This document shows positions 9,104 to 50,086 of a stretch of 64,000 bases of DNA, in pieces (the stretch's first letter is position 1; each line of letters starts with the position of its first letter). This DNA comes from an uncultured Eubacteriales bacterium. Its GTDB lineage: Bacteria > Bacillota > Clostridia > Christensenellales > UBA1242. A program made the position numbers and the translations under genes. The stretch spans positions 6,914 through 70,913 of the forward strand of contig CATLAM010000006.1 of assembly GCA_949878485.1 (NCBI GenBank). Reading direction: 5' to 3'. The notes beneath the pieces were generated by a model, which searched no databases, was not told the DNA's origin, and was given only the letters and a program-made list of their open reading frames with translations.

Positions 9104-10636
9104 TTAATCCCAATATTTTCTGTCAAGCCCACGATAAGAAATGGCTTCAAAAATGTGTCTTGGCAAAATTTCAATTTCGCCTTCCAAATCAGCAATAGTG
9201 CGAGCCACTCTTAAAATTCGATCATGTGCCCTTGCACTTAATTTCAATTTGGAAAAAGCCTGTTCCATAAGTTCTTGACATTCTTTGGAAAGTTTGCAAA
9301 ATTTCTTCATTTGTGGAACAGACATCTTGGCATTCGAAAAAGTTTTGGTGTTTTTAAATCGTTTTAACTGAATGTCTCTTGCCTTATCAACTCTTGCTTT
9401 AATGCTTTCGCTGTTTTCTTCTTTTGTTTCGTTGTTAAGGTCTTGATAGGAAATGTTGTCCACTTCCACATGAATGTCTATTCTGTCCATAATTGGTCCA
9501 GAAATCTTGGAAAGATATTTATGAATTTGTGCTGGCGTGCAACGACATTCGCGATCCTTTGCTCCATAATTTCCGCAAGGACATGGATTCATGCTGGCAA
9601 TAAGTGTGAAACTTGAAGGATATGTCACTGTTTGGTTTGCCCTTGCCACAGTTATTGTGCCGTCTTCTAAAGGTTGACGTAATGTTTCAATTAAATTTCT
9701 GGTATACTCAGGAAATTCATCCAAAAATAAAACGCCATTATGAGCCAAACTTATTTCCCCTGGTTTGCTGTGATTTCCGCCACCCGTCATGCTGACAACA
9801 GTTGCCGTTGTGTGTGGAGTTCTAAAAGGTCTTTCAGTTATGATGCCTTTTTTTAAATCAAGTTCACCTGCAATGGAATGAATTTTAGTAACCTGCAACG
9901 CTTCTTCAAAAGTTAAGTCTGGCAAAATTCCAGAAAAACATTTTGCAAGCATGCTTTTACCACTTCCTGGTGGGCCAATCATAAGCACATTATGTCCGCC
10001 TGCTGCGGCAATCTCCAATGCACGCTTAGCCATGGCTTGCCCTTTAACATTTTCAAAATCCAATTTGTTTGTGTCTTGTCTGGAAACTTCTTCAAAACTT
10101 TTTGTTTCAAGTTTGTTTAAAACTATTTCGTCATTCAAAAACATGACAACTTGTCGCAAATTGGAAACCGCATAGATTTCCATTCCGTCAATAAATTTTG
10201 CTTCTTCGCAATTGTCACTTGGAATAATCACTTTTTTAAAACCAGCACTTCTGGCTGAAATAAGAATTGGAAGAACGCCTTTGACCTTTTTAATAGTTCC
10301 GTCCAAAGAAAGTTCGCCAATGAAAATGAAATCTTTATATTTCTTATTTAAAATTTGTTCTGATGCAGACAGAATGCCAACGGCCATGCTAAGTTCGTAA
10401 TGTGGACCTTCTTTTTTTGTGTCTGCTGGTGCAAGGTTAATTGTAAAGTGTTTGATTGGAAACTGAAAGCCAGAATTTCTTATGGCAGATTTAACTCTGT
10501 CTTTGCTTTCTTTAACTGCAGTGTCACCAAGGCCGACCATGTCGATGTGTGGAATACCGCCCACCATATCTGTTTCAATAGTGACCAAAAATCCTTCAAT
10601 TCCACAAAGCCCATAACTTAAAACTTTTGATAACAT
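9104..10636 (-). CDS. comM: Mg-chelatase-like AAA+ protein ComM/YifB
   Basis: Lon-like N-terminal domain; Walker A GPPGSGKSMLAK; LFLDEFPE; C-terminal helix-bundle domain. Start MLSKVL at 10636 with GAGG upstream. Confidence 0.85.
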   Translation of the reverse strand: MLSKVLSYGLCGIEGFLVTIETDMVGGIPHIDMVGLGDTAVKESKDRVKSAIRNSGFQFPIKHFTINLAPADTKKEGPHYELSMAVGILSASEQILNKKYKDFIFIGELSLDGTIKKVKGVLPILISARSAGFKKVIIPSDNCEEAKFIDGMEIYAVSNLRQVVMFLNDEIVLNKLETKSFEEVSRQDTNKLDFENVKGQAMAKRALEIAAAGGHNVLMIGPPGSGKSMLAKCFSGILPDLTFEEALQVTKIHSIAGELDLKKGIITERPFRTPHTTATVVSMTGGGNHSKPGEISLAHNGVLFLDEFPEYTRNLIETLRQPLEDGTITVARANQTVTYPSSFTLIASMNPCPCGNYGAKDRECRCTPAQIHKYLSKISGPIMDRIDIHVEVDNISYQDLNNETKEENSESIKARVDKARDIQLKRFKNTKTFSNAKMSVPQMKKFCKLSKECQELMEQAFSKLKLSARAHDRILRVARTIADLEGEIEILPRHIFEAISYRGLDRKYWD

Positions 10637-10737
10637 ATAACCTCGCTTAACCATTCCATTATAACAAAAAATGCAATATAATCAAAATAAAATTGAAGTA
10701 ATACGACAAATTTATTACAAATTCACAAAATGGAATA

Positions 10738-10764
10738 AGAAAAAACAAACCCTAAGGTCTGTTT
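10738..10764 (-). terminator. rho-independent terminator with no gene directly upstream on its strand (orphaned by the island?)
   Basis: Minus strand reads AAACAGACC-TTAG-GGTTTGTTT then TTTTTCTTATT. The 9-bp stem has one G-U pair only in the minus orientation. Confidence 0.5.
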
Positions 10765-10847
10765 TTAATAATAAAATACTCTGGTGATGTAAATTGCCTT
10801 ATTTTCCTAGGTTTTACGGCATTTTAAACGAGTTAAAATTTAAATTT

Positions 10848-10878
10848 ATAAAACTTTTATAAAAAACTTTATAAAAAT
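10848..10878. repeat. about 2.7 tandem copies of a 12-bp AT-rich unit (ATAAAA(A)ACTTT)
   Basis: ATAAAACTTTT / ATAAAAAACTTT / ATAAAAATG read directly, just outside the proposed left island end. Confidence 0.4.
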
Positions 10879-10941
10879 GCTACAAAAATTATTAATTAAG
10901 ATACAAGTTATCTTTCTGGTTGGTTTATTTTTAGATAGAAT

Positions 10942-10974
10942 AAGTGGACAAAGTTGCAAAATCTTTGCCCACTT
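10942..10974. terminator. hairpin just past the int stop codon
   Basis: AAGTGGACAAAG / CTTTGCCCACTT arms (1 mismatch) with a 9-nt loop. The T-run is stronger on the plus side, so it may also block read-in from the flank. Confidence 0.4.
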
Positions 10975-10996
10975 ATATTTTTTATTTTTTACTTTA

Positions 10997-12430
10997 TTAG
11001 CAATATAATAGTTGATTTATTAAATTGCTTGCATTTTTATCGGCTTCTTTTGTGTAGTGTGTGTAAATATTTAATGTTGTATTTGTATCACTATGTCCAG
11101 CTCTTGCTGATACTGTTTTTATATCCATACCACGAGTAAGTTGCATGGTAATATTTGTGTGCCTTAGCCCATGCGGAGTAATTTCTTTCAGTCCATTTTT
11201 TTGTTCAAACTGTTTTAACCATCTAAAAGTTGTTGCTCCTGCCATATTTGAGCCATCCCATCTTACAAATAGTCTATCGGTATTTGCCCATAAGTTGGCA
11301 TATTTTATTTTTTCACTATCCCAAAATTTTTTGTAATCTTTTAATAATGTTACAACTCCACTTGGAATGCTAATTGTTCTGTTAGAATTTTTTGTTTTTG
11401 TATTTTTAGTTACAACCCCTATGCCACAAGCATATATACTATTTCTTGAAATTGTTACTAGTTCTCTTTCAAAATCAAAGTCTTTCCATTCTAAACCTAC
11501 CAACTCTGCGTTGCGAACACCCAAAGCAATCATTAAAGTAAATGCAACTTTTTTTCTAATATCTGTTTCATTGTTTATGCAATCTACAAAATGTTTTATA
11601 GTTTCCGTGTCATCTAATATTTCTTTTTTACCAGAAGAACCTTTTTTAATAGGACGAATAAAATCACTAGAAGCATAATTGACACTAATTATACCTTGCC
11701 TTACTGCATCTCTAAGTATCGTATGTAGCATTATTTTAATTGCATTATTTGAGCCTCTTGAATATGGAACTTGCTCACTTTCGGCTTTAAAATAATCTTC
11801 AAAATTTATTTTTAAACCTCTACATATTTTTTTAGCCGTTTCCCTTTTTAATTTATTACCAACTTTATAAGCAACCTCTATGGTAGTATCAGCCAATTCA
11901 CATAATTTTGCACAAGATTGAGTAGTTAGGTTTTTTGCAGTAACCAAATCTCTTATGCTTTGCTTCACGGTTATAGTTTCTTTTTTATGAGTTCGTTCGC
12001 ATAGCCAATTGCAAAAGTCTTGTATTATAATTTGATTTAAACCCCTTAAAGTGTATTTGCCTAATTTATCTTTAAAAATTTTTAAATAGCCTTTGCAACT
12101 ATTATAATAAGAATAGCCTTGTTCGTGGTATATTAAAATATCTTCTACCCACTTTTCAGCAAATTCATAAAATCCTATGTCTTCCATAGGCTTGTTTAAA
12201 ATTCCATTTGAAAGCCTTTCAGTTTGTTCTTTTAAGTCTAATTGACATTTTAGTTTATACGATTCAATTTCTTTTTTGCCCTTTAAGTGATTAGGTACTT
12301 TATATGTTTTAACTTTTTGTTTAAATTTTTTTGTTAAAGGGTCTTTATAGTTGCACCAAAATACAAATGAAAGTTCGCCTTTTTGATTATATCGTTCTTC
12401 TGTGTGCATTAAATCATTTTTATTCTTCAT
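10997..12430 (-). CDS. int: tyrosine site-specific integrase, Tn916-Int-like architecture
   Basis: Catalytic R (LGVRNAEL), HGLRHT, and GHSDTNTTLNIYTHY (Tyr nucleophile). Start MKNKNDL at ATG 12430 with GAGG 7 nt upstream, overlapping the xis stop. 8 Trp codons, all TGG. Confidence 0.9.
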   Translation of the reverse strand: MKNKNDLMHTEERYNQKGELSFVFWCNYKDPLTKKFKQKVKTYKVPNHLKGKKEIESYKLKCQLDLKEQTERLSNGILNKPMEDIGFYEFAEKWVEDILIYHEQGYSYYNSCKGYLKIFKDKLGKYTLRGLNQIIIQDFCNWLCERTHKKETITVKQSIRDLVTAKNLTTQSCAKLCELADTTIEVAYKVGNKLKRETAKKICRGLKINFEDYFKAESEQVPYSRGSNNAIKIMLHTILRDAVRQGIISVNYASSDFIRPIKKGSSGKKEILDDTETIKHFVDCINNETDIRKKVAFTLMIALGVRNAELVGLEWKDFDFERELVTISRNSIYACGIGVVTKNTKTKNSNRTISIPSGVVTLLKDYKKFWDSEKIKYANLWANTDRLFVRWDGSNMAGATTFRWLKQFEQKNGLKEITPHGLRHTNITMQLTRGMDIKTVSARAGHSDTNTTLNIYTHYTKEADKNASNLINQLLYC

Positions 12431-12641
12431 CTGGTACCTCAATAATTTTTCCACCTAAAAATATTATAAGTGAATTGACATCAACTAAAATTTTGCTTGA
12501 ATTAATTATGCAATCTATTTTTCCACTTTTGCATAATTGTCTAATAAATCACTCGCTTACTGCGGTATTTTTGTCAAGCGACCTTAATTCATCCATACAA
12601 CCTTTTATGGTTTTTAATTCTGGCATAATTTTTTTAAACAT
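12420..12641 (-). CDS. xis: excisionase-like HTH protein; needs sense decoding of one in-frame TGA (codon 31)
   Basis: Not in the track. AAGGAG + ATG 12641. 73 codons if TGA (12549-12551) is read as Trp: ...DKNTAVSE(W)FIRQLCKSGKIDCIINSSKILVDVNSLIIFL... The TAA stop overlaps the int ATG (ATGAAGAATAA). Confidence 0.7.
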
Positions 12642-12662
12642 ATTTTTTGCTCCTTTTTTTTT

Positions 12663-12691
12663 ATATTAATTTCATTTTTTAAAAAGTTCAA
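12663..12691 (-). promoter_or_regulatory. putative xis-int promoter
   Basis: Minus strand TTGAAC-N17-TAATAT, about 20 nt upstream of the xis SD. Confidence 0.4.
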
Positions 12692-12799
12692 GGGTTTTGA
12701 AAGGTGTTTTTCAAGTTGTTTTAAGTTTGCCAAGTTTTTTTAGTAAAAGTATTATAAATGCCTTGCTTTAAGCTTGATTTTTGTTTATAATATTTTATA

Positions 12800-12819
12800 A
12801 ATCATATTTAAATATGATT
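12800..12819. promoter_or_regulatory. perfect 20-bp palindrome, probable operator
   Basis: AATCATATTTAAATATGATT. It overlaps a TTGCTA-N17-TATATA promoter-like element (12818-12846) upstream of the 12883 HTH gene, in the divergent xis/regulator intergenic region. Confidence 0.5.
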
Positions 12820-12882
12820 GCTAATTATATTTTTGATTACTATATATATAATCATTCTAGACTTTTTTGCGGGAGGTAAACC

Positions 12883-13863
12883 ATGGATAATTTATCTAAT
12901 ACTTTTAAAACTAATTTGCAAAAACTTTTGGCTGATAATAAGATATACATTAACAAGAAAAACCTTTCTTCTTCTATCGGCTATAAAACTGCAAACTCTA
13001 TAACAAAAGACTTAAATGGAAGCAAAGAGCCTTTTTGGCAAAAGGCTTGTAAGTGCATTGAATACCTTTATTCTAATGTTCCTTGCTTTACTTTAAACAA
13101 CCTTATTCCAACCATGGAAGAAAAGCAAGAAGATAAAAAAAGTTTTGCAGAACTTGAAAAGGACTACAAAACCTTAAAATCTAATTATGAGCAACTTGAA
13201 AAGAAATATAATAATCTTTACCAGTTTGCCAACTTTATTAACATAATTAAAAACCTTTCAAACGAAAGGCAGGATACTTTATTTAATTTAATGTCAGCCG
13301 AATGCTTTGCTGACTTTTTAACCAAACTAAGAGATTATTCACATAGAGCATTAATATTTGATAAGAATAATAAAAAATCTCATTATTCAAACACTTTTAT
13401 ATTTAAACCTTACAACTATAATACTTTTGCTTATGCTGATGCTTTATGCCAGCAAACAATACTTGCTTTAAGGCTTAAATATAGATTAAAAAACCAAGAC
13501 GAATATGATAGAACAGAAGAAGAAAAAAAACAAAAACGTATTGAAGAAAAGATAAACGAAATTAAAATTACAGGGAAAAGAAGAACTGTTAAAATGCGAA
13601 TTAAAAATTTACTTGAAGAAACTAGTAATGCTGACAATAAAAAGGAATTTAGAAAAGATAGATTTAATGACCTAACTCGTTGGAAATTTAACCCTTTGGA
13701 CTTTAAAGATAATACTCTTTGGAACTATGATTTTATCGATTATAAAACCCTTTATAAAAAACAATTAGCAGAATTTATCGAAGAAGAATTTGGTAAAGAG
13801 TACTCACAAAAATATTTAAAAAAATCGATGAAAGATGAAAACGACGATATATTTAAAACTTAA
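12883..13863 (+). CDS. island regulator candidate: N-terminal Xre-like HTH plus long charged/coiled-coil C-terminal region
   Basis: GGGAGG SD + ATG. The first ~60 aa resemble an HTH_3 pattern (LQKLLADNKI..NKKNLSSSIGYKTANSITKDLNG). Divergent from xis-int. 3 Trp codons, all TGG. Confidence 0.5.
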   Translation: MDNLSNTFKTNLQKLLADNKIYINKKNLSSSIGYKTANSITKDLNGSKEPFWQKACKCIEYLYSNVPCFTLNNLIPTMEEKQEDKKSFAELEKDYKTLKSNYEQLEKKYNNLYQFANFINIIKNLSNERQDTLFNLMSAECFADFLTKLRDYSHRALIFDKNNKKSHYSNTFIFKPYNYNTFAYADALCQQTILALRLKYRLKNQDEYDRTEEEKKQKRIEEKINEIKITGKRRTVKMRIKNLLEETSNADNKKEFRKDRFNDLTRWKFNPLDFKDNTLWNYDFIDYKTLYKKQLAEFIEEEFGKEYSQKYLKKSMKDENDDIFKT

Positions 13864-13868
13864 ATTAC

Positions 13869-13899
13869 AATGCGTCTATGAGCTTGTTAAATGCGTCTA
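13869..13899. repeat. two direct copies of AATGCGTCTA 21 bp apart (third copy at 15581-15589)
   Basis: Read directly; a relatively GC-rich motif in AT-rich intergenic DNA between convergent island genes. Confidence 0.5.
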
Positions 13900-13937
13900 C
13901 AATCAATCGCGACATTTAACTTAATAAAATATATTGC

Positions 13938-14108
13938 TTATTGCATTTCGTCCGTTAAACTTTCAGTTTTTATAATCTTTAAAATTTCTTTCAACCCTTT
14001 CAAATCAAATGTTTGAATTGAAATTTCTAAAAATGTTTTTAAATCTTTCTCTAAAAGGCTTAATAAAATCTCTATTAAGTCTTTTTCATATTCTTGTTCA
14101 ACTTTCAT
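13938..14108 (-). CDS. hypothetical small protein (56 aa), last gene of the island minus-strand operon
   Basis: Below the track cutoff. GGAG SD 7 nt before ATG 14108; MKVEQEYEKDLIEILLSLLEKDLKTF...; TAA stop. Confidence 0.45.
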   Translation of the reverse strand: MKVEQEYEKDLIEILLSLLEKDLKTFLEISIQTFDLKGLKEILKIIKTESLTDEMQ

Positions 14109-14131
14109 TTTGCTTACTCCTTTTAAATTAA

Positions 14132-14476
14132 TTAGTCGGCTATTAATTCAAAATATGGAAAGCCTTTTGTAAACTTTTCATTTGCTATTTGTAAATCTTT
14201 TTTCAACTTACATACTTTTAACCACTTGCAAGGCTCAATCAAATTTAGTTGTTTTAAAAATACAAAATCGTTATTGAGAGAAAGGTTAAAACTATTTTTA
14301 ATTTCTTTTGCAGTTTGTTCGGCATCATAATCACTCATACCAGCACGAATTACAATAAGGTTATTATCAAAATGACCTTCCGCAACTTTATAATTTTTTA
14401 TAATCTCGTCTATTTGTGTTTTTGTTAAAACACTCTTTTTTATTATTATGTCAATAAAGCCATAGCCAAAAACCAT
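14132..14476 (-). CDS. hypothetical protein (114 aa)
   Basis: Start set at MVFGYGF (ATG 14476, AAGGGGGG SD), 13 nt after the upstream stop. The longer track ORF overlaps the upstream gene. Confidence 0.55.
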   Translation of the reverse strand: MVFGYGFIDIIIKKSVLTKTQIDEIIKNYKVAEGHFDNNLIVIRAGMSDYDAEQTAKEIKNSFNLSLNNDFVFLKQLNLIEPCKWLKVCKLKKDLQIANEKFTKGFPYFELIAD

Positions 14477-14489
14477 TTTTTGCCCCCCT

Positions 14490-14975
14490 TTAAACAAATT
14501 CAACTTTCTCGCAAGATAAATTTGTAAGCCTAATTTTATTATCAATATCAAGTAGTTGCGTTTTAATGTTTTTGCAGTTAATTTTTTGTGTGTAAATTTC
14601 TTTACAATCAATAGAAGATAGGCAAGTAATTTGTTTGCACTTTAAAATATTTCCACTTATGTTTTTATGTATTAATATGCTTTCACAAACACACCAATCT
14701 TTTATAATTAAGTCGTCAGCAAATATTTTATTGCAAGTAAAAGAATAGTTAAAAGTAATTGTTTTTGCCTTTACATACACGCAACAATCATAGTCTTTTT
14801 TGCTTACTTTTTGGCATTCATAAACTAAGTCAACAGCACAATTAAATAAAACATCAACTTTCTCGCCATTTTCTATAAACTCAAATATAATTTGTTTATG
14901 CTTTCCGTCGTGCTTATCTGCTGGCACTATTTTAACATATCTTTCTAATTCTTCTAGTTTATTTATCGTTATCAT
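14490..14975 (-). CDS. hypothetical Cys-rich protein (161 aa)
   Basis: AAGGAG SD; about 14 Cys spread through a beta-rich-looking sequence; no family recognised. Confidence 0.55.
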   Translation of the reverse strand: MITINKLEELERYVKIVPADKHDGKHKQIIFEFIENGEKVDVLFNCAVDLVYECQKVSKKDYDCCVYVKAKTITFNYSFTCNKIFADDLIIKDWCVCESILIHKNISGNILKCKQITCLSSIDCKEIYTQKINCKNIKTQLLDIDNKIRLTNLSCEKVEFV

Positions 14976-15037
14976 TTTAACTCCTTATTTAAAGCGGATT
15001 TATTATTTTTAAGGGGAAGTTTATGTTATTATTAATA

Positions 15038-15544
15038 TCAAGTAGGGCAGTTCTTATCAAGCCAATCAAACCAATATTTATCTAAAATATGTGGTGCAAA
15101 ATCAACATACAATTTGCTTAAAAATTTAATAGCCAACTTTTCAATTATAAATTTTCTTGCAGTGTTTGAAAGAAATAAATTAATATTTTCTTGTCTTTGC
15201 TTTTTTGAAATGTTTTCTATATCTAAATTTAGTTTAAAAGTATCGTTGACTATTTTCATAAATCTATCGTCTTCAACCAGTTCTTCAAAAATCATATTTG
15301 AAAGTGATTTTGATATATTCTCATACTTGCTATATAAAAATATCTGCAACCCATATTTTTTAAACTTTTCAGCTGAAATAACCTTATAGACATTTCCCAA
15401 CTTTTCAACTGCACCATATTTTATTAAATCTTCCAAGGTAGATTTAGCCTTTGGAAAACTCCACTTAAAAAACCTTTGCAATGTTGCAATGCCAAAATTA
15501 TCTAAATTTATTAAGTCATTAAACTTCTCAATATTGCTTTTCAT
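15038..15544 (-). CDS. hypothetical protein with N-terminal FtsK-gamma-like winged helix
   Basis: GIATLQRFFKWSFPKAKSTLEDLIKYGAVEK resembles the FtsK gamma pattern (LQRxxxxGYxRAxxxxDxLExxGxV). Ends TGA-TAT-TAA. Confidence 0.45.
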   Translation of the reverse strand: MKSNIEKFNDLINLDNFGIATLQRFFKWSFPKAKSTLEDLIKYGAVEKLGNVYKVISAEKFKKYGLQIFLYSKYENISKSLSNMIFEELVEDDRFMKIVNDTFKLNLDIENISKKQRQENINLFLSNTARKFIIEKLAIKFLSKLYVDFAPHILDKYWFDWLDKNCPT

Positions 15545-15680
15545 ATAAACTCCTTTGTATCGGTTAGTACAAGCCGTTTAAATGCGTCTTACACCGTTCT
15601 TAATATTGTGTTTATATATTTTATTGCTTTTACATTTTGTGCTTTTAAACGCTAAGTTTTAATATCTAGTATTTTGTTTT

Positions 15681-15715
15681 TTTAAAGTAAAAGACAGCAA
15701 AAATACATTGCTGTC
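15681..15715 (-). terminator. rho-independent terminator after the 325-aa membrane protein gene
   Basis: GACAGCAA / TTGCTGTC 8-bp stem, 7-nt loop, TTTT tract on the minus strand; overlaps the stop codon. Confidence 0.5.
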
Positions 15716-16692
15716 TATTTATAGCCTAGGCTTTTTCTACACTTCTTAAAACCCTCAGTTTTACAAGCCCCATAGTGTGGACATTGAATACAACCAGCAG
15801 GACCAAAATCATTTCTTCTTGCGTTTCTTTCTGCCTCTCTATTTGCTCGTTTTTGTTCATCTAATTGTTTTTGCATAATTTCAGTTTGCTTTCTTGCTTC
15901 TCGTTGTAAATTTTGTTGATGTTCTTGTGCCTCTTGTTGCAATCTATAATTTGTTTCTTCATCTTTTATTGCTCTCTGTCTAATTTCATATTCCAGCATT
16001 TTTCTTTGCCTTTGCTGTTCTTTCAATATCTTCTTTTCTCTTTCGTCTTTAATAAATATTTCTATAGCCTCTTTTATATTGTCGGCTCGACCCATCTCAA
16101 AAATATTTATAAACTCTCTTGCGTTTTCTAGAACAACATCAGGATAATGAGAAAACTTTTTGCTGTTTTCTTTTAATAATAATACCTTTTTATCAATATT
16201 TTCTCTGTTTTTTTGTTTTATTTCATTTACTTTTTTCTTATATAATTCTTCTAAGCGTTCATACTTTTCTTGGTATCTCTCGTCATACTCTGATTTCCAT
16301 TGCCTATATTTTTTGTTGCTTATTTTTTCTATAATTATTTGTATAAGATTATAAATATCTATTACTAAACAAACTACAACCACAATTATAGCGGCTCCAA
16401 GGATTATTTGACCAACCAACTTACTCAAATAATCATTTGTATTAGTCATAATTAAATAAAAGAAAATTCCAACGATTATACTTATTGGCAAAACTATTGC
16501 ATTTGCTATGAAAGCATCAACTGTTTTGCCTCCTCTTGACTTCGGAGCATCCTTATAGCTTACTTTTAGCCGTTTTTCAAACCACTCTTCCTCATCTGGT
16601 AAATCTAGATATTCATACTTAGCTTGAATTGAATTATAAGTATCATTATATTCATTTAATTCTTTTAGTATTGTCTGTACAGAATTATCCAT
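15715..16692 (-). CDS. hypothetical membrane protein: 2 TM helices, long Q/E/R/K coiled coil, C-terminal Cys cluster
   Basis: Hydrophobic spans IANAIVLPISIIVGIFFYLI and ILGAAIIVVVVCLVIDIY; coiled coil about aa 130-290; C-terminus GCIQCPHYGACKTEGFKKC. Confidence 0.55.
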   Translation of the reverse strand: MDNSVQTILKELNEYNDTYNSIQAKYEYLDLPDEEEWFEKRLKVSYKDAPKSRGGKTVDAFIANAIVLPISIIVGIFFYLIMTNTNDYLSKLVGQIILGAAIIVVVVCLVIDIYNLIQIIIEKISNKKYRQWKSEYDERYQEKYERLEELYKKKVNEIKQKNRENIDKKVLLLKENSKKFSHYPDVVLENAREFINIFEMGRADNIKEAIEIFIKDEREKKILKEQQRQRKMLEYEIRQRAIKDEETNYRLQQEAQEHQQNLQREARKQTEIMQKQLDEQKRANREAERNARRNDFGPAGCIQCPHYGACKTEGFKKCRKSLGYK

Positions 16693-16716
16693 TACAACTC
16701 CTTATGATACAACCTT

Positions 16717-16745
16717 ATTATATATATTTCTCAATAAAAAGTCAA
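16717..16745 (-). promoter_or_regulatory. promoter of the 15715-16692 gene
   Basis: Minus strand TTGACT-N17-TATAAT, consensus-like. Confidence 0.55.
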
Positions 16746-16790
16746 ATATATTTACTACAAGTCAATAAAATATTTAATTTAAAGTCAATT
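16739..16790. promoter_or_regulatory. three AAGTCAA (TTGACTT) boxes at 20- and 23-bp spacing, putative operator array
   Basis: GTCAA at 16741, 16761 and 16784 in the divergent region between the membrane-protein gene and xre. The first box doubles as the -35. Confidence 0.4.
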
Positions 16791-16807
16791 TGGAACTATC
16801 TTCTAAA

Positions 16808-16835
16808 TTAGCACGACCTCAATATCATTTATAAT
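16808..16835 (+). promoter_or_regulatory. putative xre promoter
   Basis: TTAGCA-N16-TATAAT followed by AAAGGAGG SD. Confidence 0.4.
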
Positions 16836-16860
16836 TAATTGTAATAAAGGAGGTTAGGCT

Positions 16861-17169
16861 ATGGACAATAATGAACTTATAAACCGAATAGGCTTTATTA
16901 GAAATCGTGCAAATTTGTCGGCAAGAAAACTATCAATGGAAATAGGCAAAAATGAGTGCTATATTCATAGACTTGAAACAAGCAAAACATTTGCTCCAAC
17001 CTTTGAAACTTTAATGGATATTTTAGAGGCTTGTAATACTACCACCGAAGAATTTTTTTATTATAATATTTCAGCTTATAAACAAGATGAGGAAATATTA
17101 CAACTTTTAGAAACTGCCAGCCCAGAAAAGAAAACTGCAATCATTTCATTATTAAAATTAAAACAATAA
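16861..17169 (+). CDS. Xre-family HTH transcriptional regulator
   Basis: 102 aa; IGFIRNRANLSARKLSMEIGKNECYIHRLETSK is a typical HTH_3 pattern; strong SD. Confidence 0.75.
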   Translation: MDNNELINRIGFIRNRANLSARKLSMEIGKNECYIHRLETSKTFAPTFETLMDILEACNTTTEEFFYYNISAYKQDEEILQLLETASPEKKTAIISLLKLKQ

Positions 17170-17172
17170 AAA

Positions 17173-17199
17173 AGAAGGCTTGATACTTTTCAGCCCTCT
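17173..17199. terminator. hairpin between convergent genes; contains CTTGATAC (pC194/pUB110-type nick-site sequence)
   Basis: AGAAGGC / GCCCTCT arms (1 mismatch), 13-nt loop TTGATACTTTTCA, T-rich tail. CTTGATA at 17179-17185 spans the stem-loop junction. Confidence 0.45.
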
Positions 17200-17206
17200 T
17201 TTATTT

Positions 17207-17782
17207 TTAATATTTCTTTGTGAAATAATCTTTACCTGCTTGCCATAAATAAATATCTAGTTGTCTTAAAGTAAAGTCGTTTAACTTATAAAATTCTCTA
17301 AATGCGTTTAAAATAGAATAGAACTTTTTGTAATCTCTACAATCTTCATAAGAGAATTTGAAAAACTTATCTTGCTTATTTAAGTGCATTAGCATTTTTG
17401 CCACATAACTATCAAATATAGGAAATTCATTGCCAAGATGATGAACACAATATTTGGTTGCAAAAGAGTATATATTCCTGTTTATGCCGTTTTTTGTTTT
17501 GTCAGCAATATCATTTACAACAGACAAATCTTTTGCTTTTAATTTTTTATCTATGTTTAGCGAAACAATATACTCGGCTACCTTATATGTATTAAATATA
17601 TTTGTGCTATAAAAGTCATTGAGTATATTAACCTTTAATAAAACTTCGCTAATATCATTATTGTTAGGGTAAAGGGCAAACAACTTTTTTAATGCCTTTT
17701 CTTGTTCTACATAGTTTGATTGCGTATCGCAAAGCATTAAATACTTTTCAACTTCTGCTTTGCATGGCTTTTTTATCTCCAT
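17207..17782 (-). CDS. hypothetical protein (191 aa)
   Basis: Own TTGACA promoter and AAGGAG SD; helical-looking; no family recognised. Confidence 0.55.
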   Translation of the reverse strand: MEIKKPCKAEVEKYLMLCDTQSNYVEQEKALKKLFALYPNNNDISEVLLKVNILNDFYSTNIFNTYKVAEYIVSLNIDKKLKAKDLSVVNDIADKTKNGINRNIYSFATKYCVHHLGNEFPIFDSYVAKMLMHLNKQDKFFKFSYEDCRDYKKFYSILNAFREFYKLNDFTLRQLDIYLWQAGKDYFTKKY

Positions 17783-17804
17783 ATATACTCCTTTTATCTA
17801 TTCA

Positions 17805-17834
17805 ATCATAACATACAACTACATATTTTGTCAA
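17805..17834 (-). promoter_or_regulatory. promoter of the 191-aa gene
   Basis: Minus strand TTGACA-N18-TATGAT with TG two bases upstream of the -10. Confidence 0.5.
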
Positions 17835-17868
17835 ACAAAACGAATAAGTGTTTACTATAAATAGATAA

Positions 17869-17904
17869 AAAATAAAAGTAAGTTGTTATACCTACTTTTA
17901 TTTT
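17869..17904 (-). terminator. terminator after rep (12-bp perfect stem)
   Basis: AAAATAAAAGTA / TACTTTTATTTT with a 12-nt loop and a T-tract on the minus strand, 69 nt after the rep TAA. Confidence 0.55.
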
Positions 17905-17972
17905 GAGTTATTTTATGGCTAACTACATTAATTTTAGCCAAGATTATTTGTGTTTTAACAATATAATCATAT

Positions 17973-18800
17973 TTAAGTATTATTTTGTTTATTATCTACC
18001 ATTGCTATATTAGATGTTTTAAGCCTTTCAACTAGCCTTTGCATAAAATCTTTTTCACTAGGTAAATATATTTTATCCAAATAATATGTTAATTTATTAT
18101 CATTATTTAAAAAGTAATGCCCATTTTCAAAAGTATTGTAGTCAAGTACACCAATATATTCTTTGTATTGCTCTTCTAAAATACTATATAATAAGTTTTC
18201 GTCAATCTCAAATGCTGGTACATCAATATTTTTAATTCCTTGACTTCAAGTTATTATTCTTGCACCTATGGGAAAATAGGTATAAAAGCGATTGCCTTGT
18301 TGGATTGTATCATCTTTATATTTGGTAATATATTTTATTAAGCCTTGTATATTATAGGCATTTTTAATATTGACGAATCCATAACCTCAAAACTTTTTAA
18401 TATCATGATAACCTATTTTTAATTTTTCTTCATTCAATAATATTATATGTATGTGGAAAAAGTGGCTTGTGCCTTGCACTTCAATAGCCCTTATATATTT
18501 AATATTGTCGCCATAATTCCGCCTTATGCTTTTTATAAATTGTTTAAAGGCATTTAGGACTCTGTCAAACTCTATATAATGTTCAAAGGTAAGCGTAATT
18601 CATTTAGCAAAATAATTTGTCAAGTCCAGTTTATATAGTTCATATCTTTTGCGATTGATTGTTCTATTATAATCTTTTCTATCCATATTTAGTTTAGGCT
18701 TATCGCTACGCCTTAACCCATTTCACTTTTTATCTGCCTTTTCAGTATTAAATTTTTTTGAAACAATAATCATTCCGTTTGCAAATTCAATTTTGTACAT
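17973..18800 (-). CDS. rep: HUH rolling-circle replication initiator / relaxase-like Rep; needs sense decoding of four in-frame TGA codons
   Basis: Not in the track. GGAGG (18809-18813) + ATG 18800. 275 codons to TAA if TGA at codons 26, 67, 138 and 185 are read as Trp. Motifs WITLTF, HFFHIHIIL (HUH), GLIKYITKY. No TGG, no TAA/TAG, no frameshift. Confidence 0.75.
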
Positions 18801-18993
18801 TTTATATTCCTCCGTTTTGTTGAGCAATGCTCGTATATAGTTTAGCCTCGCAAGAACATTATTTAAAACTACTTTATATTAATAAAGATTTTAGGTGCTT
18901 GTTCTAAAAAATATATAATAATTTTTATAAAAATATTTTACTGAAATTTAGAAAATTTAAATTAAACTACAAATTTTAGAAATTTTATATAAT

Positions 18994-19034
18994 TTACACA
19001 AGTTGCAACTCAAATTAGGAAAGTTACACAAGTT
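18994..19034. repeat. two direct copies of TTACACAAGTT 30 bp apart, upstream of rep near the right island end
   Basis: 18994-19004 and 19024-19034, with a 10-bp palindrome AGTTGCAACT between them. AAATTT(T)AGAAA(A)TTT is also duplicated at about 18945 and 18971. Confidence 0.5.
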
Positions 19035-19073
19035 ATTTTAAAAAACAAAAGTTAAAATTTCTAGATTAATTAA

Positions 19074-19451
19074 TTAATAAATAAACATAGAAGCGATAAA
19101 TGCCCCAGCAATGGAAAAACACAAAAGAATTTTCAACCAATGCAGAATTTTGTATTTTTTCATTTTCTTGTTGTAATCTTTCTTGAAAGCAGTTTCGTTT
19201 TCATTGAAATAATCAGAAGTAATTTGTTTTTTATTTATAGTTTCCGCTTTGTAAAATTTAAAATTTTCTTCTAATTCTGTTTTGAAATCGGTGAAATATT
19301 TGTAAATAAGCCAACCACCCCAAAAGAAACTTAGAAGCATTGCAAATGCCATGGCAAAATATACAAAACCTGTCCATGTTTGAACAAGAATTGCACTTAT
19401 GCCAGCAAGCAAAACCAAAATAATTGTGACAATGTAAGGTATTTTAGACAT
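19074..19451 (-). CDS. hypothetical small membrane protein
   Basis: 125 aa, 3 predicted TM spans. Confidence 0.55.
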   Translation of the reverse strand: MSKIPYIVTIILVLLAGISAILVQTWTGFVYFAMAFAMLLSFFWGGWLIYKYFTDFKTELEENFKFYKAETINKKQITSDYFNENETAFKKDYNKKMKKYKILHWLKILLCFSIAGAFIASMFIY

Positions 19452-47858: not shown

Positions 47859-48716
47859 TTAAAGTCTTAAACTAAGTTTTAATTTTTCATCTTCCACTTT
47901 GCCAAGACCTAAAAACTTATCTTCGCCAAAGACTTTATAATCTCCATTTTTATTTGCAACAAACAAAATTTGACCATTTAAAAGTTTTTCCTTTTCAACT
48001 TTGCTGACGCTAATTTTGTCATAATCAAACAAAGTTTCACAAGGCAAAATCTTAAAATCGTTATTTTTAATTTGTTCCATAGAAAATGCGTCTTTTAAAA
48101 AGAATATACCACATTTAGTGCGTAGTATGCTTTGCATACTACCATAAGTTGACAACTTTTCTGCTAAATCACGACATACACTTCTTATGTAAGTCCCGCT
48201 TGAACAAGAAATTTCAAATTTATATGTGTTTACAGCAAGTTTTTCCAAAACTTTAAAATCATATATTTCAATTTCTTTTGGATGAAGTTCAATTAAGTTA
48301 CCTTTTCTTGCTTCCTTATATGCCACTTTTCCACCAACCTTTTTGGCAGAATAAAGTGGTGGCATTTGTGATTGTTTACCAATCATTTCTTTGACAGCAT
48401 CTTCCACTTGTTGAAAAGTTACATTACATTCTTTTTCTTTCAAAACTTGTCCAGAAATGTCAAGAGTGTCTGTTTCAAAACCGAAAATAAACACAGTTTC
48501 ATAAGTTTTGTCTTTCTTAAGAAAAAAGTCAAACAATCTAGTGGCGTTATTGACAGTAACTGGCAAAAGCCCCGCACCTTCCAAATCAAGAGTGCCCAAA
48601 TGTCCACATTTTTTTGCACCTAAAATACGTTTTACAACATTTACAACATGATTCGATGAAATTCCAACAGATTTGTTGACTAAAACAATTCCACTTTCAT
48701 TAAATTTATTTTCCAT
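47859..48716 (-). CDS. truB: tRNA pseudouridine55 synthase
   Basis: GIVLVNKSVGISS, GHLGTLDLEGAGLLP (catalytic Asp); first ATG at 48716. Confidence 0.88.
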   Translation of the reverse strand: MENKFNESGIVLVNKSVGISSNHVVNVVKRILGAKKCGHLGTLDLEGAGLLPVTVNNATRLFDFFLKKDKTYETVFIFGFETDTLDISGQVLKEKECNVTFQQVEDAVKEMIGKQSQMPPLYSAKKVGGKVAYKEARKGNLIELHPKEIEIYDFKVLEKLAVNTYKFEISCSSGTYIRSVCRDLAEKLSTYGSMQSILRTKCGIFFLKDAFSMEQIKNNDFKILPCETLFDYDKISVSKVEKEKLLNGQILFVANKNGDYKVFGEDKFLGLGKVEDEKLKLSLRL

Positions 48717-49686
48717 CAACAACCTTTTTACCCCAAAGTTTTACAAATCTATCTATTTCACTTTTTTTAATTTTCTTGTCAAAAGCAGAAGCAAGTTTAT
48801 GCCCACCGCCACCATTAGCACCAGAGCAAATCATGGTGTTGAAGCCATTTACAGAACGCATACTTACTCTGTAATTATTTTTCTCAAATTCCATAAACAA
48901 AAATGAAACTTTTACATCTTTCATATTTTTCATTTCATCTACACTGAATTTAACATCCTCATGTTCTAAATTCAACTTTTTAAATGTATTTAAATCAAAT
49001 ACTGTATATACAACCTGTCCGTTTTCGACAAGCTTTAAATTTTTCACAAAATATTGATATGCTTTTAGATGCTTTCTACTTAAAGAACGATACATAACAT
49101 CATAAATAAATTCTATATTGGCTTGTTTTTCATATAAAATTTTTGCAACATCAAATACTTGTGGTGTCAAATTCGAATTTAAAAATCTGTTTGTATCACC
49201 CATAAGACCTATATAGAGATAAGTGGCAATCACAGGCGTTATTTCAAGTTGATGATCCCTCATCAGAATTGTAAGAATTTCACAAATGGAAGAAAGATGT
49301 GGAATGTTTAACATATTTTTACTTGCCAAACATTTACTTTCTTCTTCTGTTATTTCATGATGATCTATAACAATAATATTTTTTGATTTTTCAACTTCAT
49401 CAAAAAATATTGGAGCAAGTCTTTTCACACAATGTGCATCCATAATGACAACTAAATCATAATCTTTTGCTTTAAAATCGGTTTTCACTTCATTTAAAGG
49501 AAAAAGATAATCCAAATTACTTTCCGAATTTCTCAAAGCAAAAACATCAGCATTCACGCCAAGATTTCTACAAATCTCACGCATTGCAAACATTGAGCCG
49601 TAAGCATCTGGATCAGGGTTTTTATGTGCAAATAAAGCAATATTTTTGGCATTCTTAATAAATTTAACAACATCTTTATTTGTCAT
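48706..49686 (-). CDS. nrnA: DHH/DHHA1 phosphoesterase (NrnA-like)
   Basis: HKNPDPDAYGS, DHH motif (VIDHH), GGGHKLASAF. ATG 49686 with GAGGAG 7 nt upstream. Confidence 0.75.
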   Translation of the reverse strand: MTNKDVVKFIKNAKNIALFAHKNPDPDAYGSMFAMREICRNLGVNADVFALRNSESNLDYLFPLNEVKTDFKAKDYDLVVIMDAHCVKRLAPIFFDEVEKSKNIIVIDHHEITEEESKCLASKNMLNIPHLSSICEILTILMRDHQLEITPVIATYLYIGLMGDTNRFLNSNLTPQVFDVAKILYEKQANIEFIYDVMYRSLSRKHLKAYQYFVKNLKLVENGQVVYTVFDLNTFKKLNLEHEDVKFSVDEMKNMKDVKVSFLFMEFEKNNYRVSMRSVNGFNTMICSGANGGGGHKLASAFDKKIKKSEIDRFVKLWGKKVVDGK

Positions 49687-50041
49687 CTTCATTCTCCTCT
49701 TTTGGAATATTTAAATTTCGCAATATTGCTTCGACTCTCATGGCATTTTCTGCACTTTTATCCACAACAAAGTTTAGTTTTGGCACTTGTGGCATATCCA
49801 CCATTTTGGCAAGTTCTCTTTTAATAAAACCTTCACTTTTTTGCAAAACTGTTGTCACTGAAGAAATTTCTTTCAAATCCAACACACTTACTTTGATTTT
49901 ACAAAACTTAAAATCAGGAGTTACATTAACTTCTGTTATGCTGACAATTTTGTCAAGACGCGGATCATTCATTTTAAATTGAATTATGTCAATTAAGCAT
50001 TTTTGAATTTCTTTGTTTGCTCTGTCAATTCTGTTTGCCAT
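49676..50041 (-). CDS. rbfA: ribosome-binding factor A
   Basis: 121 aa; RANKEIQKCL..DPRL..VSITEVNVTPD pattern; follows infB. Confidence 0.88.
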   Translation of the reverse strand: MANRIDRANKEIQKCLIDIIQFKMNDPRLDKIVSITEVNVTPDFKFCKIKVSVLDLKEISSVTTVLQKSEGFIKRELAKMVDMPQVPKLNFVVDKSAENAMRVEAILRNLNIPKEENEDDK

Positions 50042-50086
50042 TTAAAAACCTCCTATAAAAAAGAGAAAGAAAGGAAAGTCAAAAAA

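What the first reader, a model, noticed from the sequence alone, without database searches (positions are those of the whole stretch)
17973..18800. Hidden rolling-circle Rep gene that is complete only if UGA is decoded as an amino acid (4 TGA, 0 TGG)
The standard-code ORF track shows nothing between 17783 and 19073. On the minus strand, GGAGG (18809-18813) and an ATG at 18800 open a frame that runs 275 codons to TAA (17973-17975). A 12-bp-stem terminator follows at 17869-17904. The only interruptions are four TGA codons, seen as plus-strand tca at 18723-18725, 18600-18602, 18387-18389 and 18246-18248 (codons 26, 67, 138, 185). There is no TAA or TAG, no frameshift, and no TGG codon in the whole frame. 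The read-through product has HUH-endonuclease motifs in canonical order: (W)ITLTF, HFFHIHIIL, then GLIKYITKY. These motifs lie in different TGA-delimited segments, so no standard-code fragment could be a working Rep. The contexts KK-W-NGL, FAK-W-ITLTF, KKF-W-GYGF and IIT-W-SQG are plausible Trp positions.
Basis: seen in the sequence. Interest (0 to 1): 0.85.

Follow-up and report, generated by a model that had tools for sequence, protein, structure and literature searches.

The report
Replication gene locked by UGA codons
A small mobile element in a standard-code gut Clostridia genome carries a working rolling-circle replication gene that can be made only when UGA is read as tryptophan, which suggests the genetic code itself serves as an on/off lock for that one gene.

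Summary
On the minus strand, 18800→17973 is a 275-codon frame with four in-frame TGA codons, no TGG and no other stops. The read-through product is a genuine rolling-circle Rep: Pfam PF23343 at E=1e-15, an AlphaFold model with pLDDT 92, and structural matches to microvirus and ORF2/G2P replication initiators. It is not a pseudogene. Nine alleles, down to 76% identity (dS≈1), keep TGA at codons 26, 67 and 138 (one has TTA/Leu at 185) and have no frameshifts, with dN/dS 0.07–0.28 in every TGA-delimited segment. Codon 138 aligns to a Trp that is invariant in 100 of 100 homologues, so TGA means Trp.

The host uses the standard code: 100 TGG codons, no sense TGA, and TGA used as a stop. Rep sits in an ~8.3-kb integrative element (10753–19087) whose other genes use only TGG. 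Rep relatives at ~30% identity, in similar elements, are also TGA-rich in six lineages, whereas plasmid relatives use TGG. No suppressor tRNA or other RNA gene was found in the element.

Best reading: a translational lock on Rep that opens only when UGA is efficiently suppressed, probably by a factor supplied in trans, perhaps a TGA-recoded phage. The source of suppression is untested.

The parts
17973..18800 (-). Rep gene: 275 codons plus TAA, complete only if TGA is read as Trp
   Evidence: dN/dS 0.08-0.28 between alleles. AlphaFold pLDDT 92.
18723..18725 (-). Sense TGA, codon 26
   Evidence: TGA in all 9 close alleles and at the same column in L015, L017 and L019. Family column is Y26/W11/F8.
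18600..18602 (-). Sense TGA, codon 67, first residue of motif 1 (W-ITLTF)
   Evidence: TGA in all close alleles. Family column is F62/W19/Y5.
18387..18389 (-). Sense TGA, codon 138, at the family-invariant Trp
   Evidence: Trp in 100 of 100 homologues. Encoded by TGG in plasmid relatives and in L015, L016, L018 and L020.
18246..18248 (-). Sense TGA, codon 185
   Evidence: TGA in 8 of 9 close alleles and TTA (Leu) in L007. The family column is variable.
18447..18455 (-). HUH motif (H116-I-H118)
   Evidence: Both His are invariant in 100 of 100. The motif lies in a different TGA-delimited segment from Tyr157.
18330..18332 (-). Putative catalytic Tyr157 (motif 3, YITKY)
   Evidence: Tyr in 99 of 100 homologues.
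18809..18813 (-). Ribosome-binding site GGAGG
   Evidence: GAGGAATAT and the ATG are conserved among alleles.
17869..17904 (-). Intrinsic-terminator-like hairpin after Rep
   Evidence: 15-bp stem plus U-run, z=-4.3.
18814..19087 (-). Non-coding leader between the element end and Rep, with two 14-nt direct repeats (18991-19004 and 19021-19034). Candidate promoter, operator or origin; function is inferred only.
   Evidence: 98% identical in L013.
10753..19087 (.). Integrative element of about 8.3 kb that carries Rep; GC 26-30% against 32-36% in the host
   Evidence: Homology to L013 at 97-98% stops at these ends. Low-GC block.
10997..12454 (-). Tyrosine integrase; 8 TGG, no TGA
   Evidence: PF00589 E=1.5e-24 and phrog_1 E=9e-50. 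Codon counts.
16861..17169 (+). HTH_3 (Xre-type) regulator, repressor-like
   Evidence: PF01381 at 24.1 bits, cut-off 23. An equivalent gene sits beside Rep in L016, L017 and L019.
17207..17782 (-). Conserved 191-aa gene immediately downstream of Rep, function unknown; uses TGG
   Evidence: Present beside Rep in L001-L004 and L007, where precomputed annotation gives PF27257 HI_0787_N. No hit in the local libraries.
15717..16698 (-). Variable cargo cassette (325-aa membrane/coiled-coil protein) that is replaced in related copies
   Evidence: Gap in homology to L012 and L013.

Best explanation
The frame at 18800->17973 is a functional rolling-circle replication initiator (HUH-type Rep, ORF2/G2P family). 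It belongs to an integrative element of about 8.3 kb (integrase, Xre-type regulator, Rep, unknown cargo) inserted in a standard-code Clostridia chromosome. Its Trp codons are written as TGA. In the host's normal state, where UGA is a stop, translation ends after 25 residues and no fragment holds both the HUH motif and the catalytic Tyr, so Rep is off while the element sits in the chromosome. Full-length Rep is made only in a cell state where UGA is decoded efficiently as Trp. The element has no detectable suppressor tRNA, so that state is most likely imposed from outside, for example by a co-infecting or co-resident TGA-recoded (code 4) phage or another element that supplies a UGA-suppressor tRNA. 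Shown here: the gene is real, it is under purifying selection, TGA stands for Trp, the recoding is specific to this gene, the host uses the standard code, and the element is mobile. Inferred: that the TGA codons act as a regulatory lock. Speculative: the identity of the suppressor source.
For: 1. Rep identity. PF23343 E=1.2e-15. phrog_3584 aligns near full length. AlphaFold pLDDT 92, pTM 0.88. BFVD gives 220 matches at E<=1e-3, led by ORF2/G2P and microvirus replication initiators.
2. Selection. Nine alleles keep TGA at codons 26, 67 and 138, and eight of the nine at 185, with no indels or other internal stops. dN/dS is 0.08-0.28 with dS up to about 1. Each of the five TGA-delimited segments has omega 0.07-0.22.
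3. TGA means Trp. Column 138 is W in 100 of 100. Columns 26 and 67 are aromatic.
4. Gene-specific recoding. Rep genes have TGA:TGG = 25:9. Neighbouring genes have 0 clear sense TGA against 54 TGG, and 8 of 38 end at TGA. Rep is the only recoded ORF in every locus examined.
5. Standard-code host. The window has 100 TGG, no sense TGA and 3 of 52 TGA stops. Host flanks of L012 and L013 have 8 of 28 TGA stops.
6. Family-wide trait. Six lineages down to about 30% identity are recoded. Two lineages and the plasmid relatives use only TGG.
7. Suppression must be efficient. The TGG share of Rep Trp codons (9 of 27 in the six Rep genes, about 33%) is close to the 23% G-ending share of other A/G two-fold codons. 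The count varies from 2 to 5 TGA per gene, and TGA and TGG swap at homologous columns. TGA therefore behaves as a near-neutral synonym whenever Rep is made.
8. No suppressor on board. ARAGORN finds no tRNA in the window or inside the elements, and an Rfam E-value scan of 10500-19400 is empty.
9. The element is active. L002 is a circular 9,196-bp form and L001 is the same element integrated at a tRNA. Copies 97-99.5% identical lie at different chromosomal sites.
10. Precedent. Recoded prophages occur in standard-code hosts with code-compatible integrases, and TGA-recoded gut phages carry tRNA-Sup(UCA) (bioRxiv 10.1101/2021.08.26.457843).
Against: No suppressor source was identified. No recoded phage could be linked to these hosts. 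Neither the element's Rep nor three of its other proteins (the 191-aa and 168-aa proteins and the integrase) has a relative in the viral contig collection, and the element carries no recognisable packaging or capsid-redirection genes. The host genomes could not be scanned beyond 10-kb flanks, so an inducible host-encoded suppressor tRNA, or absence of RF2, cannot be ruled out directly. There is no release-factor gene in the window. The Rep-versus-neighbour codon counts are partly non-independent phylogenetically, and three or four neighbour-gene TGAs that lie 20 or more codons before the next stop could be sense rather than stop codons.
Confidence: 0.5

Rival explanations
1. Leaky readthrough without any special factor. 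The host's ordinary tRNA-Trp(CCA) occasionally misreads UGA, giving extremely rare full-length Rep. This sets a very low, stochastic activation frequency for the element.
For: No suppressor was found in or near the element. From general knowledge, UGA is the leakiest bacterial stop and is misread as Trp, and many integrative elements are activated at 1e-7 to 1e-4 per cell. None of the 15 sense TGAs tabulated from the independent lineages is followed by T, a weak trend.
Against: With 2 to 5 UGAs per gene, yields would differ by many orders of magnitude between lineages, yet all remain under similar purifying selection. TGA and TGG swap freely at homologous columns at about the ratio expected from A/G mutation bias. 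That fits near-neutral synonymy, not changes of 30- to 1000-fold in expression per swap.
Confidence: 0.2
2. The element changes the code itself, through an unrecognised product: a non-canonical suppressor tRNA, or one of its unknown proteins acting on tRNA-Trp or on RF2.
For: Most cargo proteins have no family assignment. The 191-aa gene is always adjacent to Rep in the close clade. Only 15-35% of code-4 phages have detectable suppressor tRNAs, so such genes can escape detection.
Against: ARAGORN and the Rfam E-value scan found nothing. No deaminase, GGQ/SPF release-factor or Walker-A motifs occur in a meaningful context. The distant recoded relatives (L016, L017, L019) do not share the same neighbouring genes apart from the HTH regulator and a recombinase.
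Confidence: 0.12
3. The host itself reads UGA as Trp, either as a code-4 lineage or as a lineage that has lost RF2. On this view nothing is special about Rep.
For: TGA is a rare stop in the window (3 of 52), and the genome is AT-rich.
Against: Host and element genes have 100 and 54 TGG respectively and no sense TGA, at 27-33% GC. TGA stops are used in typical coupled arrangements, in 8 of 28 host-flank genes of L012 and L013, and as TGA-TGA-TAA in L017. An AT-rich code-4 genome would be full of TGA Trp codons.
Confidence: 0.05
4. Defence reading. The recoded HUH nuclease is a trap that is translated only when a code-switching phage infects, and it then damages phage or host DNA (abortive infection) rather than replicating the element.
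For: The same logic of code-gated translation applies. Satellites and integrative islands often carry defence functions (general knowledge).
Against: There are no PADLOC hits. The protein has all the hallmarks of a plasmid or phage replication initiator and sits beside a repeat-bearing non-coding leader. A circular form of the element exists.
Confidence: 0.05
5. Pseudogene: a Rep gene acquired from a code-4 organism or phage that is decaying in a standard-code host.
For: PF23343 includes Spiroplasma plectrovirus ORF2 (family description), and the standard code truncates the product at residue 25.
Against: dN/dS is 0.07-0.28 in all segments at dS up to about 1. There are no frameshifts or TAA/TAG before codon 261 in 9 alleles, and no indels. 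The recoding recurs in six lineages. The elements are recently mobile and one is circular.
Confidence: 0.02
6. UGA encodes selenocysteine, or glycine as in code 25.
For: From general knowledge, many Clostridia have selenocysteine machinery.
Against: Column 138 is Trp in 100 of 100 homologues and no TGA column is Cys- or Gly-dominated. Four or five Sec residues at aromatic core positions are implausible. No SECIS-like family was hit.
Confidence: 0.01

Closest known systems
Stop-codon-recoded prophages in standard-code gut bacteria (Garnet and Topaz prophages; Agate and Jade TGA-recoded phages; Borges et al., bioRxiv 10.1101/2021.08.26.457843)
   Same: In-frame stop codons sit in selected genes of a mobile element integrated in a standard-code host. 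The integrase is kept code-compatible. The genomes are low in GC. The proposed role is to keep one arm of the life cycle untranslated until the code is switched.
   Different: Those are 22-560 kb phages in which 26-71% of genes are recoded, mainly structural and lysis genes, and many carry their own suppressor tRNA, RF or TrpRS. The prophage examples described in depth are TAG-recoded. Here the element is about 8.3 kb with no phage structural genes. Exactly one gene is recoded, it is the replication initiator, and there is no code-change machinery on board.
Rolling-circle Rep proteins of small Gram-positive plasmids and ssDNA phages (HUH superfamily; Pfam PF23343 ORF2/G2P; microvirus replication initiators)
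   Same: Motif order xTLT, then HUH, then Y. Pfam hit above threshold. Structural matches to microvirus and ORF2/G2P Reps. 24-35% identity to Reps of 1.5-13 kb plasmids from Staphylococcus, Clostridium, Caldicellulosiruptor, Bacillus and others.
   Different: The two plasmid relatives checked use TGG at the invariant Trp and at their other Trp codons. This Rep lies in an integrase-bearing chromosomal element and needs UGA suppression. No solved structure is similar by sequence, and the PDB fold search was uninformative.
Phage satellites and phage-inducible chromosomal islands (PICI-like elements)
   Same: A small integrase-bearing island at tRNA or gene 3' ends, with an Xre-type regulator and its own replication initiator. 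It is silent until an external trigger and has both circular and integrated forms.
   Different: No packaging, capsid-redirection or helper-interference genes were recognised. The proposed trigger (a helper's altered genetic code rather than an antirepressor) is hypothetical and, as far as the literature searches here show, undescribed.
Code-4 organisms and their viruses (Mycoplasma and Spiroplasma; plectroviruses)
   Same: UGA is read as Trp, and Rep belongs to a Pfam family that includes Spiroplasma phage ORF2.
   Different: In those systems every gene uses TGA. Here the host and all neighbouring genes avoid it. There was no tblastn hit to any cultured phage record.

Membership tests
HUH rolling-circle replication initiators (Pfam PF23343 REP_ORF2-G2P) | Profile match above the curated threshold | tested here: met
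   58 bits against a cut-off of 27.8, E=1.2e-15, residues 66-162.
HUH rolling-circle replication initiators (Pfam PF23343 REP_ORF2-G2P) | Motifs in order: xTLT (motif 1), HUH metal-binding pair (motif 2), catalytic Tyr (motif 3) | tested here: met
   T69 95, L70 89, T71 92, H116 100, H118 100 and Y157 99 of 100 aligned homologues.
HUH rolling-circle replication initiators (Pfam PF23343 REP_ORF2-G2P) | Fold similar to known Rep nuclease domains | tested here: inconclusive
   BFVD predicted structures: ORF2/G2P and microvirus Reps at E=2.5e-10 and below, TM 0.4-0.56. Solved structures: no match at E<=1e-3, only weak AAV and Vientovirus Rep hits.
HUH rolling-circle replication initiators (Pfam PF23343 REP_ORF2-G2P) | Site-specific nicking at a double-strand origin and rolling-circle replication | not testable with these tools
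   There is only a candidate leader with two 14-nt repeats and a circular contig.
Stop-codon-recoded phages and prophages (alternative-code phages) | In-frame reassigned stop codons in genes under selection, in a standard-code host | tested here: met
Stop-codon-recoded phages and prophages (alternative-code phages) | Integrase free of recoded stops | tested here: met
   The integrase has 8 TGG and no TGA. The same holds for the serine recombinases in L001, L016 and L017.
Stop-codon-recoded phages and prophages (alternative-code phages) | The element is a phage: structural and lysis genes are present and are the preferentially recoded set | tested here: not met
   No structural or lysis PHROG or Pfam hits. 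Only Rep is recoded.
Stop-codon-recoded phages and prophages (alternative-code phages) | Own code-change machinery (suppressor tRNA, RF or aaRS); common in the family but not universal | tested here: not met
   No tRNA, no Rfam match, no RF motifs.
Genetic code 4 genome (Mollicutes-type) | TGA used as Trp throughout the genome, TGG a minority, no TGA stops | tested here: not met
   100 TGG and 0 sense TGA in 52 long ORFs, with TGA stops present.
Phage satellite / PICI-like island | Integrase, regulator and autonomous replication module in a small island with excised circular form | tested here: met
Phage satellite / PICI-like island | Helper dependence and packaging or capsid-hijack genes | tested here: inconclusive
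   No such genes were recognised, but most cargo is unannotatable. Helper dependence is not testable here.
Selenoprotein gene | UGA aligned to Cys or Sec in homologues, with a SECIS element | tested here: not met
   The columns are Trp or aromatic. There is no RNA family hit.
Pseudogene | Relaxed constraint (dN/dS near 1), frameshifts, varied stop codons | tested here: not met
   omega is 0.07-0.28, there are no indels, and TGA is the only interrupting codon before codon 261.

The most novel reading that the evidence does not exclude
These elements are satellites, or sentinels, of code-switching phages. Their replication initiator is written in the helper's alternative genetic code, so the act of recoding the infected cell (expression of a UGA-suppressor tRNA) is itself the induction signal that switches on Rep and element replication. 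That would be a mobile element using the genetic code as a sensor, and the first case of single-gene, trans-dependent recoding conserved across a family.
Probability: 0.3. Interest if true: 0.92.

Novelty: new variant of a known kind. Interest (0 to 1): 0.8.

Why it matters
Stop-codon recoding has been proposed, but hardly tested, as a regulatory device in large gut phages. This system is minimal by comparison: one essential gene, 2-5 UGA codons, a standard-code host, and no suppressor on board. It makes the idea directly testable with reporter fusions with and without a suppressor tRNA, TGA-to-TGG swaps, and co-occurrence with code-4 phages.

The finding also shows that standard annotation systematically misses these genes. 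The Rep proteins were found only in Logan and ENA gene calls, not in NCBI or UniRef sources. Small integrative elements with "no replication gene" may therefore be hiding recoded ones.

If the suppressor comes from a phage, this would be a new kind of signalling between mobile elements. If it comes from the host, it would reveal conditional UGA-to-Trp decoding in Clostridia.

Tried and rejected
- **Cultured phage relatives:** tblastn of Rep against cultured phage records gave no match.
- **Viral contig scans:** two scans with Rep profiles and three with the 191-aa, 168-aa and integrase proteins found no relatives.
- **JGI metagenome scan:** it found nothing with A3, and A5 was too divergent to seed a search.
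- **Release factor in the window:** I looked for prfB downstream of a suspected secA, but the ORFs are infB/rbfA/nrnA-like and the window has no release-factor motif.
- **Inovirus reading:** rejected. No Walker-A/Zot-like ATPase is present and only one protein has a membrane segment.
- **Defence-island reading:** no PADLOC hits.
- **Element-encoded code changer:** there are no deaminase or RF-like motifs; one isolated GGQ lies in an ORF whose 5' part overlaps a neighbour.
- **A-to-I editing of UGA to UGG by TadA:** considered and rejected on sequence context. None of the TGA sites has the TACG loop motif that, from my own knowledge, TadA requires (contexts).
- **Solved structures:** the PDB sequence and fold searches gave nothing useful.
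- **Literature:** searches found no report of a single recoded replication gene in a satellite or integrative element.

Full report
**Observation**

Reading the minus strand from 18800 to 17973 gives a 275-codon frame that starts ATG, is preceded by GGAGG eight bases upstream, and ends TAA. It is interrupted only by TGA at codons 26, 67, 138 and 185, and it has no TGG. A 15-bp hairpin with a U-run follows at 17869-17904 (-14.8 kcal/mol, z=-4.3). The longest run free of TAA/TAG in this otherwise ORF-less gap is 301 codons, against a mean of 74 and a maximum of 161 in 2000 composition-matched simulations.

**What the protein is**

With Trp at the TGA positions, the product matches Pfam PF23343 (REP_ORF2-G2P) at E=1.2e-15, 58 bits against a cut-off of 27.8. 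It also aligns almost end to end with PHROG 3584, replication initiation protein.

A search of 1.84 billion representative proteins found 342 homologues. In an alignment of 100 of them, the HUH histidines H116 and H118 are invariant, Tyr157 is present in 99, and the xTLT motif in 89-95.

An AlphaFold model built on that alignment is confident (pLDDT 92, pTM 0.88) and forms one fold running across all four TGA positions. It matches predicted structures of ORF2/G2P-domain and microvirus replication initiators (E down to 2.5e-10, 220 matches at E<=1e-3). Solved structures gave nothing significant.

tblastn finds relatives at 24-35% identity as the Rep genes of small rolling-circle-type plasmids of Staphylococcus, Clostridium, Caldicellulosiruptor, Bacillus and others.

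**It is not a pseudogene**

Close homologues (P0001 at 95%, P0002 at 82%, P0003 at 76% identity) exist only as metagenome gene calls made under code 4. At the DNA level, nine alleles all carry TGA at codons 26, 67 and 138. Eight of the nine carry it at 185, and L007 has TTA (Leu) there. The L001 lineage has a fifth TGA at 241 and one TGG at 203. None has an indel or any TAA/TAG before codon 261.

Nei-Gojobori dN/dS is 0.08-0.28 for all pairs, with dS up to about 1. Each of the five segments between the TGA codons has omega 0.07-0.22. The part downstream of every TGA is therefore translated somewhere and is under purifying selection.

**TGA stands for Trp**

- Codon 138 aligns with a Trp that is invariant in 100 of 100 family members.
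- Codon 67 sits in an F/W/Y column (62/19/5).
- Codon 26 sits in a Y/W/F column.
- Codon 185 sits in a variable column.
- Standard-code relatives spell the invariant Trp as TGG: S. epidermidis pLF23/2, C. cadaveris pCCIFB3C5_2, L018 and L020.

Glycine and selenocysteine are excluded.

**The host and the neighbouring genes use the standard code**

The 52 table-11 ORFs of at least 150 aa in the window contain 100 TGG and, by construction, no TGA. They tile the window densely, and no other gene is rescued by reading through TGA. Stops are TAA 37, TAG 12 and TGA 3. The window contains no tRNA and no release-factor gene.

Rep lies in a low-GC block. Comparison with MAG contig L013 (97-98% identity) bounds it at about 10753-19087. 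The block contains:

- a tyrosine integrase at 10997-12454;
- an Xre-type HTH gene at 16861-17169;
- a conserved 191-aa gene next to Rep;
- several unknown genes;
- a variable cassette at 15717-16698.

All of these spell Trp as TGG and have no internal TGA.

**The element is mobile**

The single genome-collection scan found it in three uncultured Clostridia/Eubacteriales MAGs, two of which carry two copies. The flanks of those copies do not match the window. In L013 the Rep end abuts tRNA-Val, whereas in the window it abuts the 3' end of ORF 19074-19451. L002 has a 30-nt terminal overlap, so it is a circular 9,196-bp molecule. Its 99.5%-identical sibling L001 ends in a tRNA 3' half, so it is integrated.

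**The recoding is specific to Rep and old**

Rep relatives at only about 30% identity sit in similar elements (Rep, HTH regulator, serine recombinase) and also carry in-frame TGA:

| Locus | TGA | TGG |
|---|---|---|
| L014 | 3 | 1 |
| L015 | 2 | 3 |
| L016 | 2 | 1 |
| L017 | 2 | 3 |
| L019 | 4 | 0 |

Their neighbours use TGG and appear to terminate at TGA, for example TGA-TGA-TAA in L017 and TGA at codon 818 of 822 in the L019 LRR protein. The same alignment column can be TGA in one lineage and TGG in another: the invariant Trp is TGA in the window, L014, L017 and L019, but TGG in L015 and L016.

Pooled, Rep genes have TGA:TGG = 25:9. Neighbours have 0:54, with 8 of 38 neighbours ending at TGA (Fisher p about 9e-15). 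Two caveats apply: lineages are not fully independent, and a few neighbour TGAs are ambiguous.

In every MAG locus Rep is the only recoded ORF, and the host flanks of L012 and L013 use TGA stops in 8 of 28 long ORFs. Two other lineages (L018, L020) and the plasmid Reps are not recoded.

**Mechanism**

Shown: in the host's default state Rep translation must stop at codon 26. HUH (116-118) and Tyr157 lie on opposite sides of TGA138, so no standard-code fragment can be active.

Inferred: when Rep is made, UGA must be read efficiently. The TGG share of Rep's Trp codons (about a third) is close to the 23% G-ending share of other A/G two-fold codons, and lineages tolerate anywhere from 2 to 5 TGA codons. 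TGA therefore behaves as a near-neutral synonym of TGG in this gene only. Leaky near-cognate readthrough would instead make each swap change expression by orders of magnitude.

The element has no detectable tRNA or other RNA gene and no recognisable RF, deaminase or synthetase motifs. The most economical explanation is a suppressor supplied in trans.

TGA-recoded gut phages with tRNA-Sup(UCA), RF1 and TrpRS are known, as are recoded prophages in standard-code hosts whose integrase is code-compatible (bioRxiv 10.1101/2021.08.26.457843; PMC11210395). Keeping an RCR initiator silent while the element is integrated makes biological sense, because it would otherwise nick and over-replicate the chromosome. 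That rationale is my inference.

The link to a helper phage is untested. Nothing from the element was found on viral contigs, and whole host genomes could not be searched.

**Comparison with what is known**

The protein is a member of the HUH/ORF2-G2P Rep family on sequence and motif criteria. The recoding resembles that of alternative-code prophages, but it differs in scale (one gene of about ten, against 26-71% of genes), in target (the replication initiator, not structural or lysis genes), in element type (an 8-9 kb non-phage island) and in lacking code-change machinery. Four literature searches found no report of such a case.

I class it as a new variant of a known kind. I have about 95% confidence in the gene, its selection and the Trp decoding, and about 50% confidence in the trans-gated lock model.

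Noticed in passing
L002 1-9226; L001 9189-9228: L002 is a circular 9,196-bp copy of the related element (30-nt terminal overlap whose junction contains TTTGGCTCCCCA). L001, 99.5% identical, ends in the 3' half of a tRNA gene. Together they look like attP and an integrated junction of the same element.
   Followed up: partly
P0004 (191 aa, 934-nt ENA contig): A database protein joins a CYTH-like N-terminal part (PF01928) to the Rep C-terminus, starting just after the codon-185 position. It is probably a standard-code gene call that picked up the fragment downstream of that position, or a real recombinant junction.
   Followed up: no
window 15038-15544 (-); L001 4435-4947; L017 4905-5381: Element genes that end in TGA have a second stop very close behind (TGA TAT TAA in the window and L001; TGA TGA TAA in L017). 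These could be back-up stops for a state in which UGA is suppressed. By a rough hand estimate this is not distinguishable from chance in such AT-rich DNA.
   Followed up: partly
L012 8630-8930 compared with window 18801-19090: L012 has a window-type Rep (dN 0.046) but an L001/L007-type upstream region and att sequence (GGCTCCCCACATATTCCCGCAT...). The leader/att module and the Rep gene have therefore recombined between element lineages. Recombinase type also differs: tyrosine in the window, serine in L001, L016 and L017.
   Followed up: partly
L009 and L011, Rep codon 261: Both copies in MAG MGBC127298 carry a TAA at codon 261, which shortens Rep by 15 C-terminal residues. That tail has low model confidence (pLDDT 54 for the last block).
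   Followed up: no
window 14132-14611 and 14490-14975 (-): Two listed ORFs overlap by about 120 nt. In L001 the equivalent region is called as a 161-aa gene followed by 39-aa and 68-aa genes, so the real start of the downstream window gene is probably internal.
   Followed up: no
window 19074-19090: The element's Rep-side end overlaps the last four codons and the stop of host ORF 19074-19451 (a 125-aa membrane protein), so the element supplies that gene's present 3' end. The AT-rich imperfect repeat TTAATAA(A)TAAA occurs at both junctions and is a possible att core.
   Followed up: partly
window 18991-19004 and 19021-19034: Two copies of AA(T/G)TTACACAAGTT lie 30 nt apart in the leader upstream of Rep. 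They are candidate iterons, an operator or part of the origin. They are conserved in L013 but absent from the L001-type leader.
   Followed up: partly
window 48706-52633 (-): An infB / rbfA / DHH-family (nrnA-like) gene run, identified by eye from the translations while looking for prfB. It is ordinary host housekeeping context.
   Followed up: no
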